5,192 nt of DNA from the NCBI RefSeq assembly GCF_018420025.1, contig NZ_JAEDAM010000065.1:1-5192 (forward strand). The letters are read 5' to 3'. The notes beneath the pieces are model-generated. The model searched no databases and had not been told where the DNA came from. It worked only from the letters and a program-made list of their open reading frames with translations. The DNA comes from Candidatus Vampirococcus lugosii (lineage in GTDB: Bacteria > Patescibacteriota > Gracilibacteria > Absconditabacterales > Absconditicoccaceae). Made by a program: the position numbers and the translations under genes. Shown one piece after another: positions 1-5,192 of this stretch; positions within the stretch are counted from its first letter, which is position 1, and each line of letters starts with the position of its first letter.

Positions 1-1
1 C

Positions 2-646
2 TTTATATTATGAAATATTAGATATGATTTGGTATGAGAAATTATGAAAAATACTTTACTTACTAGGAAAACGATAGTAAAAATTTTATCAAAAATTCAT
101 ACTATTAAATTTGAGCAATTCAAAATCAATCCAGAAGATTTTATCAAAAAAGTATCTAATTTTATAAATGAACAAAAAGCTTCAACATTGATAAACAATA
201 TTGTTTATAATGCAATAGATCAAAAATATGATAGTGATATATTTACTATAAATAATTTCAAATGATCATTGAAAGACAATATTTTACAAGTGCAAAAACA
301 TATTTATGATTATGTCAAAACGGATTCACAAGTAGAAAGAAATTTAGCTTGAGAACTTGAAACTTGAGAAATTTTAGTATATGCAAAGTTGCCTTCTTCA
401 TTCAAAATACCAACTCCGATATGAAACTACAATCCAGATTGGGCAATTGTAATTGATAAAAAAGATGTTAAATATGTTTATTTCATTGCTGAAACAAAAT
501 GAAGTTTGGAAACTTTACAATTAAAATGAGCAGAAGATTTAAAAATACAATATGCAAAAAAACATTTTGAAGCTCTTTGAAATAATGATATTAAATATGA
601 AGTTATTGCCTGATATTCTGATTTGATGCAGGAAGTTTTTAGGTAG
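2..646 (+). CDS. res: Type III restriction endonuclease Res subunit, C-terminal 214 codons (5' end lies off-window), including the PD-(D/E)xK nuclease domain; requires TGA=Gly
   Basis: The frame of position 2 is open from the window edge to TAG 644-646 if the 10 in-frame TGAs (11, 35, 263, 350, 365, 422, 500, 527, 578, 611) are sense. The track ORF 44-265 is an internal fragment. The translation reads ...LTRKTIVKILSKI...HIYDYVKTDSQVERNLAGELETGEILVYAKLPSSFKIPTPIGNYNPDWAIVIDKKDVKYVYFIAETKGSLETLQLKGAEDLKIQYAKKHFEAL... It has the nuclease core P-D (434-439) and E-x-K (491-499). It also matches the KLPxxFxIxTPxGxYxPDWA / ETKG / KHF pattern I remember from COG3587-type Type III Res C-termini. There are no GGN codons in the fragment, so all Gly would come from TGA. 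Family call from memory, not searched. Confidence 0.8.
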
Positions 647-711
647 TTTGATTTTGGAAAATATAAGTTTATTAAAATATAAATAAAGTAAAATAAATAA
701 ATGAGCTTCAA

Positions 712-749
712 AAAAAATATTTAAATTTTATATTTAAAAAATATTTAAA
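712..749. repeat. 14-bp perfect direct repeat AAAAAATATTTAAA (712-725 and 736-749) in the res-helicase intergenic spacer
   Basis: Read directly from the sequence: two identical copies 24 bp apart, separated by TTTTATATTT, and each contains the self-complementary core AAATATTT. The sequence is low-complexity A/T, so chance occurrence is not negligible. Confidence 0.4.
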
Positions 750-754
750 AAGAA

Positions 755-782
755 TTGATTAAATTATAATAATATATATAAT
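755..782 (+). promoter_or_regulatory. Putative sigma70-type promoter for the helicase operon: -35 TTGATT (755-760), 16-nt spacer, -10 TATAAT (777-782)
   Basis: The -10 hexamer is a perfect consensus match and the -35 is 4/6, with 16-nt spacing, about 40 nt upstream of ATG 822 in the only sizeable intergenic gap (647-821). TATAAT-like strings are common by chance in DNA this AT-rich, and promoter rules in this lineage are not established. Confidence 0.35.
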
Positions 783-802
783 GAATTTTAATTATATATA
801 TT
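771..802. repeat. Perfect 12-bp inverted repeat AATATATATAAT (771-782) / ATTATATATATT (791-802) with an 8-nt spacer, followed by TTTT (803-806)
   Basis: The arms are exact reverse complements as read from the sequence. The left arm contains the putative -10 box, and the element ends 20 nt before the helicase ATG. It could be an operator, a weak all-A/T hairpin, or low-complexity coincidence. Confidence 0.4.
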
Positions 803-821
803 TTTTGAAATTTAAAATAAA

Positions 822-3800
822 ATGCAATTATTTGATAATAAAACTCAAAAAGTTTGATATGACCTTAAAAATACTATTTGAAAAAATACTAAATTAAGTG
901 TAGCAGCTGCAATATTTTCTATTTATTGATTTGATAGTTTAAAAAAAGAATTATCAAATATTGATGAATTAAATTTTATATTTACAGATTGAGCATTTAT
1001 TGAAAAATCTAATAATAAAAAAGAAAAAAAATTATTTGAAATTAAATCAGATAATATAAAAAAAGCAATATCATGAACTGATTTTGAAATAAATCTAAAA
1101 AATAAAATGAAAGGTAGAAAAATTGCAAAAGAATGTAAAAAATGGATAGATTGAAAAGTAAAATTTAAATCTAATATTTCTTGAGATTATATACAAGAGC
1201 AATTTATTGTAGATAATAATGATCAAAAAATTATTTATCAATGAATAGAACAATTTAGTAGTTCATGATTTGGTTTTGAAAATGATAATTCTATTATAAG
1301 AAATATTATTAAAATTAATGATTATCAAATGAGTAAATCTTTTTTGGATTCTTTTAATCAAGTTTGGAATGATAATGAATCATTAAAAGATATAACTGAA
1401 GAAGTAGTTGATTATATTTCAAATTTATATAAAGAAAATTCTCCAGAATTTGTATATTATTTTACTTTATATAATATATTTGATGAATTTTTGGAAGATA
1501 TATCAGAAGATGAATTAGCAAATGAAAAAACAGGTTTCAAAGAATCTGTAATATGGAATCAAATGTTTGATTTTCAAAAAGATGCAGTTTTATGAATAAT
1601 AAATAAACTTGAAAGATATAATGGTTGTATACTTGCTGATAGTGTATGACTTGGTAAAACATTTTCAGCATTAGGAGTTATTAAATATTATCAAGAAAGA
1701 AATAAAAGTATTTTAGTTTTATCTCCCAAAAAATTATGAGATAACTGGCTTACTTTCTTAAATAATTATGAAGATAATTTACTTGTCAAAGATAGATTAA
1801 ATTATGATGTTTTATATCATACAGATTTATCAAGAAATAAATGAGATTCAAATTGAATTGATTTATCTCGTATAAATTGGTGAAATTATGATTTAATAGT
1901 AATTGATGAATCACATAATTTTAGAAATAATGTATCTAGAAAAGATAAAACTACTCGTTATCAAAAATTATTGAATAATATAATAAAAAAATGAGTAAAA
2001 ACTAAAGTTTTGATGCTTTCAGCAACTCCTGTAAATAATAAATTTACTGATTTAAAAAATCAAATATCACTTGCTTATGAATGAAATACAAACATAATTG
2101 ATGAAAAAATGGAAGTTTCAAAATCTATAGATACTATTTTATCAAATGCACAAAGAACATTTAATGAATGGTCAAAACTTGATTTAGAAAAAAGAACTTC
2201 TACCGAATTACTTAAAAGATTAAATATTAATTTTGATTTTTTTAAATTACTTGATTGAATAACTATTGCTAGAAGTAGAAAACATATAGAAAAATATTAT
2301 GATATATCCAAAATATGAAATTTTCCAAATAGACTTAAACCAAAAACTATAAGATCTAATATAACAAACTTGGAATCATTTATAAGTATAAAAGAATTAT
2401 ATGAATCTTTGTCAAAACTTAATATGTCAGTTTATAACCCATTTAATTATATACTTCCAAGTAAAATAAATTTTTATGATGATATTTATGATACAAATAT
2501 AGATACTTTTAGAAGTTTGAAACAAAATACAAGAGAACAGAGTTTGCAAAAACTTATGAAAGTAAATTTTTTAAAAAGATTAGAAAGTTCTATTGATTCT
2601 TTTAGAATTACTTTATGAAAATATATTTTAAAAATTGAAGATATTATTGCTAATATTGAAAAATTTGAAAAATATTGAACCAAAACAAATACAGATTTAA
2701 TTCAATACAATGAAGATGATATTGATGAAGATAATGATGATTGGATAGATGATGAATTTAGTGTATGAAATAAAGTAAAAATTAATCTTGAAGATATGGA
2801 TACATTATCTTGGAAGCAAGATTTACAAAAAGATTTATATATTGCTAGTGAAATATTAGAAGAAATGAATTTTGTTGAACCACAAAATGATAGTAAATTA
2901 AATGATTTGAAAGAAATTATTAAAAATAAAATTGAAAATCCTATAAATGAATGAAATAAAAAAATTATTATTTTTACAGCTTTTACTGATACAGCAAATT
3001 ATTTATACCAAAATTTAATTGATTATAATAAAAATTTTTGATTACAAACAGCAAAAATAAGTTGAGATTGAGTAAATGAATGTAGTTTTAAAACAGATAA
3101 ACAATTTAATAATTTACTTATAAATTTTTCTCCTATATCAAAATCAAGATCTAAATCAAAAGAAAATAATACTCAAATTGATATATTGATAGCAACAGAT
3201 TGTATAAGTGAATGACAAAATTTACAAGATTGCGATTATCTTATAAATTATGATATACATTGGAATCCTGTGAGAATTATTCAAAGATTTTGAAGAATTG
3301 ATAGAATATGATCTCAAAATAAAGATATACAACTTGTAAATTTCCGACCTCAATTATCTCTTGATGATTATATTGATTTGAAAAATAGAGTAGAAAATAA
3401 AATGAATATTGTATGAACTACAGCAACATGAGAAAATATTTTGACCAATAAATCAAGTGATCTTGAGTTTAGAAAAAAACAATTAGAGAAATTACAAAAT
3501 GAAGTTGTAGATATAGAAGATATGGATACAGGAATTTCTATTATGGATTTATGATTAAATGATTTTAGAATGGATCTCATAAATTATATAAATCAAAATT
3601 GAAAATTTAAATGAATACCTTATTGAATGCATACAGTTTGTAAAAAAAATTTATCTAAATGAATTGATGAATGAGTAATATTTATATTAAAAAATATTAA
3701 TAATGAAATTAATATTGAAAATACAAATCAATTACACCCGTTTTATGTAGTTTATATAAATAAATATTGAAAAATTTTATCTAATCATATCAATGTAAAA

Positions 3801-4067
3801 CATACTCTTGATGTTTTAAAATCTATATCTAAATGATATAATGAAGCTATAAAAGAAGTTTATGAATTATTTAATGAAGAAACTCAAGATTGAAAATATA
3901 TGGACAAATATTCTGAATTATTAAATCAATCTATACAATCAATTATAAGTATAAAAAATGAAACAGATATAGATAGTTTATTTAATGATTGATGAACATC
4001 TGATATAATGAATAATATTAAATGATTAAAAGATTTTGAACTCATTACTTTTATTGTTATCAAATAA
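822..4067 (+). CDS. SNF2-family (superfamily 2) DNA helicase/translocase, 1081 aa, with an N-terminal His-free domain (possibly a degenerate PLD-like fold) and an uncharacterised C-terminal domain of about 240 aa; requires TGA=Gly
   Basis: I translated codon by codon. There is no TAA/TAG in frame from ATG 822 (preceded by in-frame TAA 813-815) to TAA 4065-4067, with about 43 in-frame TGAs by hand count. Track ORFs 1329-1595 and 2370-2618 are fragments of this frame. Helicase motifs: FDFQKDAV (1566-1589); I ILADSVGLGKT (1629-1661, Gly=TGA 1647-1649); II VIDESH (1899-1916); III LSATP (2016-2030); V ATDCISEGQNLQ (3192-3227, Gly=TGA 3213-3215); VI HWNPVRIIQRFGRIDRIGS (3258-3314, Gly=TGA 3291-3293 and 3309-3311). 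The N-terminus MQLFDNKTQKVGYDLKNTIGKNTKLSVAAAIFSIYGFDSLKKEL resembles the N-termini of PLD-fused SNF2-like helicases as I remember them. Confidence 0.93.
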
Positions 4068-4069
4068 TT

Positions 4070-4690
4070 ATGATTTTAGAACTACCAAAAAATTGTTTAG
4101 TAGATAAATTTGTATCAAAGACTAAGTTTACATCTCAGGTACTTGTTAATACTAAACTCAAAGATGAGTTTACTCGTGAGATAAAAAGAATAACTTGGAA
4201 ATATAAACTTGCAGAAACTACTCTGATGATACAAGCAACTCAAAAAGTAAAAGAAATACAAATATTTGAGATAGAACTAAAGAATAAAGAGATACCAAAA
4301 AATGTACTCAAACTTATAGATAAACTTATTCCTTACTATATACTTTATTATTTCAAATATGAAAATAATTTTGCTTTTTGAATAACTCTCAAAGATAATG
4401 TAAGTAAAGATTATTATTTTTCAGACTGGAACGAAGAGTTAAAATTTAACTTTCATGCTATAAATCTAAAAATAGTACTAGAAAATATTATAAAGCAATT
4501 TATAAAAAGAGTAGATACAGATAATAATAACTTCCAAGATATAATTGAAAAAGACAAACAAATAACTATACTAACCAAAGAAATACAAGCATTAAAAAAT
4601 AAGATAAAACAAGAAAAGCAATTTAATAAAAAAGTAGAACTCAATAAAACTTTGCAAGAGAAACAAAAGCTTTTGTGAAAACTTAAATAA
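4070..4690 (+). CDS. DUF4391-like protein of unknown function, 206 aa, with a charged coiled-coil-like C-terminal tail; probably translationally coupled to the helicase
   Basis: ATG 4070 lies 2 nt after the helicase stop. The frame is open to TAA 4688-4690 with two sense TGAs (4379-4381, 4676-4678). Track ORF 4070-4381 is the N-terminal half. The sequence is MILELPKNCLVDKFVSKTKF...EIKRITWKYKLAETTLMIQATQKVKEIQIFEIELKNKEIPKNVLKLIDKLIPYYILYYF...YYFSDWNEE...KQEKQFNKKVELNKTLQEKQKLLGKLK. The LPK start, the ITWxYKL segment, EIQIFEIxL, LIDKxIPYxIL and the KQFNKKVELN tail match my recollection of Pfam DUF4391, a family usually encoded next to SNF2-type helicases. Confidence in the CDS itself is high. 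Confidence in the family call is about 0.65. Confidence 0.85.
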
Positions 4691-4711
4691 TTTATATACT
4701 AATATAGTAAT

Positions 4712-5101
4712 ATGGAAATTATATGATTAATAGTTATAACATATTTAATTATTATATTTGTAAATAGTTTTAGATCTCCATATAAAAAAAGATCAAAAGG
4801 AAGTTCTTACAATAATAATTACTATAAAAACAATACAAATGATGAAGATAATCTTCGAACTAATACTTATGATCAGCTCTGGGATAAGTACAAAGCAGAA
4901 ACAAAAACTCCACCACTTAATGCATTGGTTTCACGGGCATATGAAAACGGAGAAATATTCTCTGGAAGAAACAATTTTGATGATTTGAACCAAGAAGATA
5001 AAAAAACCATCTTAAGAATAGCTATATGTATATCTAAAAAAAAAGCTGCAGAAAAAGCTTTAGAAAAAATGATGGATATGAATCAATCAGGTGGATATTA
5101 A
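4712..5101 (+). CDS. Hypothetical small protein, 129 aa, with an N-terminal transmembrane anchor; absent from the standard-code ORF track
   Basis: ATG 4712 lies 21 nt after the DUF4391-like stop. TGA at codon 5 (4724-4726) hides the ORF under the standard code. 129 codons run to TAA 5099-5101 without TAA/TAG, which is improbable by chance in DNA this AT-rich. The sequence is MEIIGLIVITYLIIIFVNSF (hydrophobic helix), then RSPYKKRSK (basic), an N/Y-rich linker, and ...TNTYDQLWDKYKAETKTPPLNALVS.AYENGEIFSGRNNFDDLNQEDKKTILRIAICISKKKAAEKALEKMMDMNQSGGY. I recognise no family. Codon usage differs from the neighbouring genes (see findings). Confidence 0.6.
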
Positions 5102-5140
5102 TTAAAAACTTAACTAATTTATTTTATAAAACAACTACTT

Positions 5141-5192
5141 ATGCAAAAACTAGACCTACAAACTTTTGATAGTTTATCAAAAAATATAGAAG
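5141..5192 (+). CDS. Possible 5' end of a further plus-strand gene (MQKLDLQTFDSLSKNIE...), product unknown
   Basis: This is the first ATG after in-frame TAA 5111-5113, and the frame is open for 17 codons to the window edge on the same strand as the cluster. It is too short to evaluate. Confidence 0.25.
   Translation, partial: MQKLDLQTFDSLSKNIE

What the first reader, a model, noticed from the sequence alone, without database searches (positions are those of the whole stretch)
1..5192. Whole window is recoded: TGA encodes glycine (translation table 25), so standard gene calling fails here
About 56 in-frame TGAs (hand count: 10 in res, about 43 in the helicase, 2 in the DUF4391-like gene, 1 in the small ORF) interrupt frames that otherwise run for up to 1081 codons without TAA/TAG. 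The amino-acid identity can be read from invariant positions. TGA occupies the Walker-A glycine of SNF2 motif I (ADSV-TGA-LGKT, 1647-1649). It also occupies the motif V glycine (SE-TGA-QNLQ, 3213-3215), both motif VI glycines (QRF-TGA-RIDRI-TGA-S, 3291-3293 and 3309-3311) and the ETK-TGA of the Res nuclease (500-502). Composition agrees. In the helicase, GGN supplies only about 7 Gly and TGG about 9 Trp. TGA=Trp would therefore give about 4.8% Trp and 0.6% Gly, which is implausible, while TGA=Gly gives about 4.6% Gly. This places the DNA in Gracilibacteria/Absconditabacteria (SR1) or one of their mobile elements or phages. Every annotation of this locus made with table 11 or table 4 will be wrong.
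Basis: partly seen in the sequence, partly recalled or inferred. Interest (0 to 1): 0.75.

Follow-up and report, generated by a model that had tools for sequence, protein, structure and literature searches.

The report
UGA-as-glycine recoding in Vampirococcus contig
The window is a whole 5.2-kb contig of the predatory bacterium Candidatus Vampirococcus lugosii, and all its genes read TGA as glycine; the reading is correct, but it is the published genetic code 25 of this lineage, so nothing new.

Summary
There are 56 in-frame TGAs (10, 43, 2 and 1) in four same-strand ORFs that end only in TAA or TAG. ORFs of at least 150 codons cover 0% of the window under the standard code and 87% when only TAA/TAG are stops.

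Against 120 homologues per gene, 37 of 43 helicase TGA columns, 6 of 10 Res columns and the one conserved DUF4391 column are glycine columns. These include the Walker-A, motif V and motif VI glycines and the ETK-G of the nuclease. Profiles built from standard-code homologues rank Gly first of 20 residues (helicase 1928 bits, against 1830 for Ala and 1772 for Trp). TGG columns are Trp in 97-100% of homologues.

The window proteins are identical to GenBank/RefSeq proteins of Candidatus Vampirococcus lugosii (Absconditabacteria) on a 5192-bp contig. The genome paper (PMC8080830) states UGA=Gly and used Prodigal table 25. This is therefore already known, and interest is low.

The tRNA-Gly(UCA) and RF2 tests could not be run on the parent genome.

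Side observations:
- Relatives in public databases are mistranslated with Trp.
- Newer RefSeq versions are truncated at the last sense TGA.
- An independent assembly joins the two contig ends.

The parts
2..646 (+). C-terminal endonuclease domain (214 codons, 10 in-frame TGA, 0 GGN) of a type III-like restriction enzyme Res subunit. It is cut at the contig start and ends in TAG.
   Evidence: Pfam RE_endonuc PF19778, 118.4 bits with G against 108.0 with W. PADLOC REase_III positions 772-986/989. Identical to MBS8122280.1. TGA columns 422 and 500 are Gly in 115/119 homologues.
647..821 (.). Intergenic spacer, GC 7.4%.
   Evidence: no Rfam family and no tRNA.
822..4067 (+). SNF2-like 'helicase-related protein', 1081 codons, with 43 in-frame TGA, 7 GGN and 9 TGG. 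It ends in TAA.
   Evidence: Pfam SNF2-rel_dom, ResIII and Helicase_C. PADLOC C3a139 'HKD+Snf2', 425 bits. Identical to MBS8122281.1/WP_213349705.1. 37/43 TGA columns are Gly-majority.
1647..1649 (+). TGA at the Walker-A / motif I glycine (ADSV-G-LGKT).
   Evidence: Homologue column: G 108, W 11; the W rows are table-4 mistranslations.
3213..3215 (+). TGA at the motif V glycine (SE-G-QNLQ).
   Evidence: Column: G 107, W 12.
3291..3311 (+). Two TGAs at the motif VI glycines (QRF-G-RIDRI-G-S).
   Evidence: Columns: G 108/W 11 and G 115/W 4.
4023..4025 (+). Last in-frame TGA of the helicase. It is a sense codon (Gly), but the newer RefSeq protein WP_244831606.1 stops just before it.
   Evidence: Column: G 107/W 12. 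The 13 residues after it are conserved, with D, F, L and F invariant in 119 homologues.
4070..4690 (+). DUF4391 protein, 206 codons, 2 in-frame TGA (4379, 4676), 0 GGN. It ends in TAA.
   Evidence: Pfam DUF4391, 131 bits. Identical to WP_213349707.1. Column 4379: G 93, W 19, A 4.
4712..5101 (+). Small ORF of 129 codons with a hydrophobic N-terminus, 1 TGA (4724) and 5 GGN. The family is rare.
   Evidence: Present in the protein library as P0362 with G at the TGA, plus five distant homologues. No Pfam, PADLOC or NCBIfam family.
5141..5192 (+). First 17 codons of the N6_N4 DNA methyltransferase of the same operon, cut by the contig end.
   Evidence: MQKLDLQTFDSLSKNIE against MQNLDMETLNSLDNNIE (L001) and MQKLDMLTPDMLRENIE (L123), the methyltransferase N-termini in relatives.

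Best explanation
The window is a complete 5192-bp contig of the Absconditabacteria (SR1) epibiont Candidatus Vampirococcus lugosii. This organism uses genetic code 25: UGA is a glycine sense codon and only UAA and UAG terminate.

Shown here:
- All genes on the contig are continuous only if TGA is read through.
- The residue required at those positions is glycine.
- In this 21% GC DNA, TGA has become the main glycine codon (56 TGA against 12 GGN, 82%).

Inferred from established knowledge of code 25 (Campbell et al. 2013 PNAS 110:5540, cited in PMC8080830; not read here): UGA is decoded by a dedicated tRNA-Gly with anticodon UCA charged by GlyRS, and release factor 2, which recognises UGA, has been lost.

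The genes themselves belong to a widely transferred operon: SNF2-like helicase, DUF4391, N6/N4 methyltransferase and type III-like Res. In this contig it is truncated or permuted.
For: - TGA counts and ORF structure.
- Column tabulation: 37/43 helicase, 6/10 Res and 1/2 DUF4391 TGA columns have Gly as the commonest residue. TGG columns are W in 97-100% of homologues and GGN columns are G.
- Twenty-residue scan against HMMs built from standard-code homologues only. G is best in all three genes: helicase 1928.3 against A 1829.5 and W 1771.8; Res 362.5 against S 348.5 and W 334.4; DUF4391 294.4 against A 291.8 and W 288.1.
- Pfam scores are G > X > W for four domains.
- Identity to V. lugosii GenBank/RefSeq proteins that carry G at every TGA, on a contig of 5192 bp. 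Taxonomy is Absconditibacteriota.
- The genome paper says UGA is reassigned to glycine and that genes were called with Prodigal table 25 (PMC8080830). Code 25 is called 'well-established' for both lineages in PMC10746230.
- A 76%-identical relative (L001, GC 21%) has 47 in-frame TGAs in the same gene, and 42 of them fall on Gly-majority columns.
- Lineage-level mechanism: a conserved 79-nt cloverleaf tRNA with anticodon UCA occurs in 59 loci, mostly labelled Gracilibacteria. In those loci long-ORF cover rises from 0.13 to 0.84 when TGA is not a stop.
Against: - Nothing in the window contradicts the explanation.
- Six helicase TGA columns are not Gly in homologues: K at 879, P at 990, E at 1152, N at 1182, S at 2256, and an invariant D at 3414. 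This is what about 35% divergence predicts, but it shows that not every site is informative.
- Pfam's broad DUF4391 model scores W (133.2) and A (132.7) slightly above G (131.1). This is a single non-conserved column of that model, and close homologues have G there.
- The parent genome's tRNA-Gly(UCA) and the absence of prfB were not verified.
Confidence: 0.97

Rival explanations
1. TGA encodes tryptophan (translation table 4, as in Mollicutes), not glycine.
For: Table 4 also removes the interruptions. Fourteen of 120 helicase homologues and about 20 DUF4391 homologues in the database show W at these columns. Pfam DUF4391 scores W 2 bits above G.
Against: - The W-bearing homologues have almost no GGN glycine (for example P0002: 57 W, 4 G). 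Their W codons are TGA in the DNA (47 of 57), and 42 of those lie on Gly-majority columns, so they are table-4 mistranslations of code-25 relatives.
- In the 105 standard-code homologues these columns are Gly. W ranks 17th of 20 in the helicase HMM scan, 156 bits below G.
- True TGG columns are W in 97-100% of homologues.
- W would replace the Walker-A glycine and the motif V and VI glycines.
Confidence: 0.01
2. Standard code: the locus is a heap of pseudogenes, or an assembly artefact of whole-genome amplification, in which TGAs are real stops.
For: The DNA came from MDA/MALBAC-amplified material. The Res gene is truncated and the methyltransferase is cut.
Against: - There are 56 TGAs but not a single in-frame TAA or TAG across 1081 codons in 21% GC DNA (P about 1e-29 or less).
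- The TGAs sit specifically on Gly columns.
- Non-TGA positions are about 65% identical to functional homologues over the full length.
- Independent relatives show the same pattern.
Confidence: 0.005
3. The code is 25, but the contig is not chromosomal. It would be a small circular or tandemly repeated mobile element (or amplification product) of a code-25 cell, carrying a deletion derivative of the helicase-DUF4391-methyltransferase-Res operon.
For: - An independent Logan assembly of run SRR13241708 (L124) joins window 5192 directly to window 1-30.
- The contig ends fall exactly at methyltransferase codon 17 and at about residue 770 of Res.
- The gene order is a cyclic permutation of the canonical helicase-DUF4391-Mtase-Res order seen in L001, L122 and L123.
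- The Polaribacter homologue lies next to an integrase and a D5-type primase.
Against: - The join rests on the 30-nt (k-1) overlap at the end of one contig.
- Amplification chimeras can create such joins, and so can a branch in the assembly graph (a full-length copy and a deleted copy coexisting).
- The 5.2 kb contains no replication or mobilisation gene.
- The Res frame stays open for only 7 codons across the join and has no start codon there.
Confidence: 0.2

Closest known systems
Genetic code 25 (Candidate Division SR1 / Gracilibacteria code; UGA = Gly)
   Same: In-frame TGA falls at conserved glycines, TAA/TAG are the only terminators, the genome is AT-rich, and the organism belongs to Absconditabacteria. 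The recoding of this very genome is published (PMC8080830).
   Different: Nothing differs in kind. The one notable point is how far TGA has displaced GGN: 82% of Gly codons on this contig, and 86% in the helicase.
Genetic code 4 (Mollicutes and others; UGA = Trp)
   Same: UGA is a sense codon in an AT-rich reduced genome. Automated pipelines translate code-25 relatives this way.
   Different: The residue is Gly, not Trp. TGA and TGG columns are cleanly separated, G against W.
Helicase-DUF4391-N6_N4 methyltransferase-type III Res operon (PADLOC candidate C3a139 'HKD+Snf2' for the helicase; REase_III for Res)
   Same: The helicase is 64-66% identical over its full length to proteins of Polaribacter, Aequorivita, Labilibaculum, Dojkabacteria and Omnitrophota. 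DUF4391 follows directly, as in L001, L122 and L123.
   Different: Only the last 214 residues of Res and the first 17 codons of the methyltransferase are present here. Res lies upstream of the helicase instead of downstream. A lineage-restricted small ORF sits between DUF4391 and the methyltransferase start. The N-terminal 245 residues of the helicase contain no histidine in this protein and no highly conserved histidine column among the homologues, so there is no HKD motif.

Membership tests
Genetic code 25 (UGA = Gly) | Conserved genes are interrupted by in-frame TGA but never by TAA/TAG, and genes terminate with TAA/TAG only. | tested here: met
   56 in-frame TGAs. All four complete stops are TAA or TAG. 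Long-ORF cover is 0% under three stops and 87% under TAA/TAG only.
Genetic code 25 (UGA = Gly) | TGA aligns with conserved glycine (not tryptophan) in homologues from standard-code organisms. | tested here: met
   44 of 55 TGA columns have Gly as the commonest residue, including the Walker A, motif V and motif VI glycines. G is best of 20 residues in three independent HMM scans.
Genetic code 25 (UGA = Gly) | The organism belongs to Absconditabacteria (SR1) or Gracilibacteria (BD1-5/GN02). | tested here: met
   The proteins are identical to Candidatus Vampirococcus lugosii entries on a 5192-bp contig. The lineage is Candidatus Absconditibacteriota.
Genetic code 25 (UGA = Gly) | The genome encodes a tRNA-Gly with anticodon UCA. 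| not testable with these tools
   The window is a whole contig with no tRNA, and the other contigs of the genome could not be reached. At lineage level only, 59 of 120 pattern hits are one conserved 79-nt tRNA(UCA) in Gracilibacteria-labelled MAGs whose ORFs need TGA read-through. The acceptor-stem Gly identity bases were imposed by my search pattern, so they are not independent evidence.
Genetic code 25 (UGA = Gly) | Release factor 2 (prfB) is absent. | not testable with these tools
   This needs the whole genome. No tool here searches a single named assembly.
SNF2-family (SF2) helicase | An N-terminal SNF2/ResIII ATPase lobe with Walker A and DExH, plus a Helicase_C lobe with motifs V and VI. 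| tested here: met
   With TGA=G: SNF2-rel_dom 43.7, ResIII 32.0 and Helicase_C 57.6 bits, all above the Pfam cut-offs. The motifs GLGKT, DESH, SEGQNLQ and QRFGRIDRIG are present.
DISARM DrmD / anti-phage PLD-helicase (NCBIfam equivalogs) | Score at or above the curated equivalog cut-off. | tested here: not met
   DrmD scores 151 bits against a cut-off of 610. phospholipD_antiphage scores 127 against 1100. The protein is related through the helicase core only.
Type III restriction enzyme Res subunit | A full-length protein with a ResIII helicase region followed by a C-terminal RE_endonuc domain. | tested here: not met
   Only the C-terminal 214 residues are present (REase_III profile positions 772-986/989). 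The frame has no start codon even across the putative circular join.

The most novel reading that the evidence does not exclude
The contig may be a circular or tandem deletion derivative of a promiscuous helicase-DUF4391-methyltransferase-Res defence operon. That operon is shared at about 65% identity with many standard-code phyla, has entered a code-25 lineage, and has since had 82% of its glycine codons converted to TGA. If so, it would be a datable natural example of a defence island crossing a genetic-code boundary and then becoming non-transferable back. That bears on the 'code as HGT firewall' idea discussed for SR1.
Probability: 0.15. Interest if true: 0.3.

Novelty: already known. Interest (0 to 1): 0.08.

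Why it matters
For annotation it matters in practice. Under table 11 the contig yields no ORF of 150 codons or more. Under table 4 it yields proteins with Trp in the Walker-A and helicase motif V/VI glycines. Both kinds of error are visibly present in public protein collections for relatives of these genes.

Scientifically it adds nothing to what is known. UGA=Gly has been established for SR1/Gracilibacteria since 2013 and is stated for this genome in its 2021 description.

Tried and rejected
- Exact look-ups of table-11 ORF fragments (4727-5101, 4070-4381) and of P0241 found no contig.
It stopped at 120 rows, none from Vampirococcus or labelled Absconditabacteria. It therefore gives lineage-level support only.
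- Campbell et al. 2013 (PMC3619370) is not held. Hanke et al. 2014 has no statement on tRNA or RF2.
- The Pfam DUF4391 score favouring W over G looked like counter-evidence. Single-site variants showed it comes from one column where A scores as well as W. Close homologues have G there.
- Selenocysteine or programmed read-through was considered and rejected. There are 56 sites in four genes, all on Gly columns, and neither Rfam (gathering threshold) nor ARAGORN found any RNA element or tRNA in the window.
- I asked whether the small ORF's GGN preference marks a recent import from a standard-code donor. This is rejected as unsupported. Its only homologues carry W where it has GGN-Gly (EKWEI against ENGEI), so they look like code-25 relatives themselves.
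- A literature search for DUF4391 gave nothing on function.
Full report
**1. The observation**

The window is 5192 bp with 20.8% GC. With TGA, TAA and TAG all counted as stops, the longest stop-to-stop frame is 125 codons. With only TAA/TAG as stops, four same-strand frames appear: 2-646, 816-4067 (1084 codons), 4022-4690 and 4703-5101.

- Res fragment: 10 in-frame TGAs.
- Helicase (ATG 822 to TAA 4067, 1081 codons): 43 TGAs, with 7 GGN and 9 TGG.
- DUF4391 gene (4070-4690): 2 TGAs.
- Small ORF (4712-5101): 1 TGA.

A TAA/TAG-free run of 1084 codons in this composition has probability 3e-29 (observed triplet frequency) to 3e-44 (base composition). ORFs of at least 150 codons cover 0% of the window under the standard code and 87% when TGA is not a stop.

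**2. Which amino acid**

I translated TGA as X and collected 120 homologues for each of the three larger genes.

*The helicase.* It has very close full-length homologues (63-66% identity) in many standard-code bacteria, including Polaribacter, Aequorivita, Labilibaculum, Dojkabacteria and Omnitrophota, so the alignment is unambiguous.
- Gly is the commonest residue in 37 of the 43 TGA columns. Examples: Walker A (1647) G 108; motif V (3213) G 107; motif VI (3291, 3309) G 108 and G 115.
- The nine TGG columns are Trp in 97-100% of sequences, and the seven GGN columns are Gly.

*Res.* The two strongly conserved TGA columns (422, and the ETK-TGA at 500) are Gly in 115 of 119 homologues. Six of the ten columns have Gly as the commonest residue.

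*DUF4391.* Column 4379 is G 93, W 19, A 4. Column 4676 is variable.

*Profile scans.* HMMs built only from homologues with no W at any TGA column, scored against the query with each of the 20 residues substituted, put Gly first in all three genes:
- Helicase: 1928.3 bits, against 1829.5 for Ala and 1771.8 for Trp.
- Res: 362.5, against 348.5 for Ser and 334.4 for Trp.
- DUF4391: 294.4, against 291.8 for Ala and 288.1 for Trp.

Pfam agrees for Helicase_C (G 57.6, X 42.1, W 36.9), SNF2-rel_dom (43.7, 35.6, not reported), ResIII (32.0 against 24.6 for W) and RE_endonuc (118.4 against 108.0).

*The one discordant number.* Pfam DUF4391 scores W 133.2 against G 131.1. This comes from a single column at which Ala scores 132.7, so the column is not conserved in that broad model.

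**3. The Trp residues in some homologues are mistranslations**

Fourteen helicase homologues carry W at 12-35 of the TGA columns and have very few Gly overall. For P0002 (76% identical) I fetched the DNA, L001, a Logan contig with GC 21%.
- 47 of its 57 'W' are TGA codons, and all 10 remaining are TGG.
- 42 of the 47 TGAs lie on columns that are Gly-majority in standard-code homologues, and all 10 TGGs lie on Trp columns.
- All six genes on that contig have many in-frame TGAs and end in TAA or TAG.

So relatives of this lineage show the same recoding, and public collections hold them translated with table 4.

**4. Where the DNA comes from**

The best hits are proteins of Candidatus Vampirococcus lugosii:
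- Helicase: MBS8122281.1 / WP_213349705.1, 1081 aa.
- DUF4391: WP_213349707.1, 206 aa.
- Res fragment: MBS8122280.1, 214 aa, partial.

All are on a contig of exactly 5192 bp. They are identical to the window translation at every non-TGA residue and have G at every TGA. The window is therefore that whole contig. NCBI taxonomy places the species in Candidatus Absconditibacteriota.

The genome paper (Moreira et al. [quoted passage not shown] It also says that CDSs were predicted with Prodigal translation table 25. PMC10746230 calls code 25 in these lineages 'well-established'.

**5. Mechanism**

*Shown here.* TGA is a sense codon for Gly, TAA/TAG are the only terminators, and TGA supplies 56 of 68 Gly codons (82%) on the contig.

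*Inferred from established knowledge of code 25* (Campbell et al. 2013, cited in PMC8080830; I could not read it). A tRNA-Gly with anticodon UCA decodes UGA, and RF2 is absent.

*What I could and could not test.* I could not test the tRNA or RF2 on the parent genome. The contig has no tRNA, and no tool reaches the other contigs.

I used the single genome-contig scan for a tRNA-shaped pattern with anticodon UCA and Gly-type acceptor ends. It stopped at 120 rows, with none from Vampirococcus.
- 63 loci hold a cloverleaf tRNA(UCA). 59 of these are one highly conserved 79-nt gene.
- By record label, the 59 are 38 Gracilibacteria, 10 'Peribacteria', 5 Patescibacteria group, 1 Altimarinus and 5 unlabelled.
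- In those 59 loci, median long-ORF cover is 0.13 with three stops and 0.84 with TAA/TAG only. In the other 61 loci it is 0.94 and 1.00.
- Rfam assigns the one reported example (L013) to the general tRNA family.

This links a UCA tRNA to TGA recoding in the sister lineage. The acceptor bases were imposed by my pattern, and no Absconditabacteria genome was reached, so it counts only as supporting context.

**6. What the genes are**

The helicase has SNF2-rel_dom, ResIII and Helicase_C domains. Its best match is the PADLOC candidate model C3a139 'HKD+Snf2' (425 bits). It falls far below the equivalog cut-offs for DrmD, DpdE, ZorD and the anti-phage PLD-helicase.

In relatives the conserved order is helicase, DUF4391, N6_N4 methyltransferase, then Res (ResIII + RE_endonuc, about 1011 aa). 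This is seen in L001, L122 (Polaribacter, next to an integrase and a D5-type primase) and L123.

In the window the order differs:
- The first gene is the last 214 residues of Res.
- Helicase and DUF4391 follow.
- Next comes a small ORF whose only homologues look like code-25 relatives.
- Last come 17 codons that match the methyltransferase N-terminus.

**7. Topology (side finding)**

A Logan assembly of run SRR13241708 (L124, 4542 bp) matches window 682-5192 and then continues for 30 nt into window 1-30. The two ends of the contig are therefore adjacent in that assembly.

The join puts methyltransferase codon 17 next to about residue 770 of Res, out of frame. The Res frame stays open for only 7 codons across the join and has no start codon.

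This fits a circle or tandem array carrying a deletion of most of the methyltransferase and Res. It equally fits a branch point in the assembly graph, or a chimera from whole-genome amplification (the DNA was MDA/MALBAC amplified). I could not decide between these. It does not affect the code assignment.

**8. Verdict**

Novelty: already known. Interest is low.

The practical points worth passing on are the mistranslated relatives in public databases and the newer RefSeq versions of two proteins that end at the last sense TGA. For the helicase, the tail removed by that truncation is conserved across homologues.

Noticed in passing
window 4023-4067 and 4676-4690: RefSeq holds two versions of two proteins. 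The helicase exists as WP_213349705.1 (1081 aa) and the later WP_244831606.1 (1067 aa). DUF4391 exists as WP_213349707.1 (206 aa) and WP_244831607.1 (202 aa). Each later version stops exactly before the last in-frame TGA, while still reading all earlier TGAs as Gly. The helicase tail that is removed is conserved (D, F, L and F invariant in 119 homologues), so the short forms look like an annotation artefact that treats a sense TGA as the stop.
   Followed up: partly
window 5192|1 junction; L124 4483-4542: An independent Logan assembly (SRR13241708) runs from window 682 to 5192 and straight on into window 1-30, so the contig ends are adjacent (a circle, a tandem array, a graph branch or an amplification chimera). 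The join fuses methyltransferase codon 17 to about residue 770 of Res, out of frame. This makes the gene order a cyclic permutation of the canonical helicase-DUF4391-Mtase-Res order, with about 4 kb missing.
   Followed up: partly
window 2-646: GenBank names this product 'Type III restriction-modification system methylation subunit, partial'. In fact it is the C-terminal endonuclease domain of the Res subunit (PF19778; PADLOC REase_III 772-986/989). Many database homologues are stand-alone proteins of about 226 aa that start about 12 residues upstream of the window's first residue.
   Followed up: partly
database homologues P0002-P0008, P0015, P0019, P0037, P0048, P0076, P0079, P0092; P0122, P0126, P0147 and others; about 20 DUF4391 hits: Public protein collections hold relatives of all three genes with Trp at conserved Gly columns and almost no Gly. 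These are code-25 genes called with table 4. This was verified at the DNA level for P0002 on L001.
   Followed up: yes
window 4712-5101: The small ORF uses GGN for 5 of its 6 glycines, while the other three genes use TGA for 55 of 62 (Fisher p = 4e-4, post hoc). Its GC is 26%, against 20% for the helicase. Its five distant homologues carry W where it has GGN-Gly, so they are probably code-25 genes too. The function is unknown. The N-terminus is hydrophobic.
   Followed up: partly
L006 16-90, L036 4985-5055, L075 1799-1871, L108 269-341: Four tRNAs of 71-75 nt have a Gly-type acceptor stem (GCG.../...CGCU) but anticodon UCA. They lie in high-GC contigs labelled Anaerolineaceae, Akkermansia, Archangium and Gemmatimonadales, which are standard-code taxa. 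They may be UGA-suppressor glycine tRNAs or mutated copies. Rfam assigns L006 and L036 to the general tRNA family (74 and 52 bits).
   Followed up: no
window 3414-3416: This TGA (Gly) sits in a column that is Asp in all 119 homologues, including the code-25 relatives. It is a lineage-specific D-to-G replacement at an otherwise invariant position of the helicase C-terminal region.
   Followed up: no
window 2653-2658 against L124: The Logan assembly has one extra A in an A-run (A5 in the window, A6 in L124). This splits the helicase into two called genes there. The GenBank contig keeps the frame intact.
   Followed up: yes
window 822-1560 (helicase residues 1-245): The best PADLOC model is named 'HKD+Snf2'. 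However, the N-terminal 245 residues contain no histidine in this protein, and none of the highly conserved columns among 119 homologues is His. The N-terminal domain therefore cannot carry a catalytic HKD motif.
   Followed up: partly
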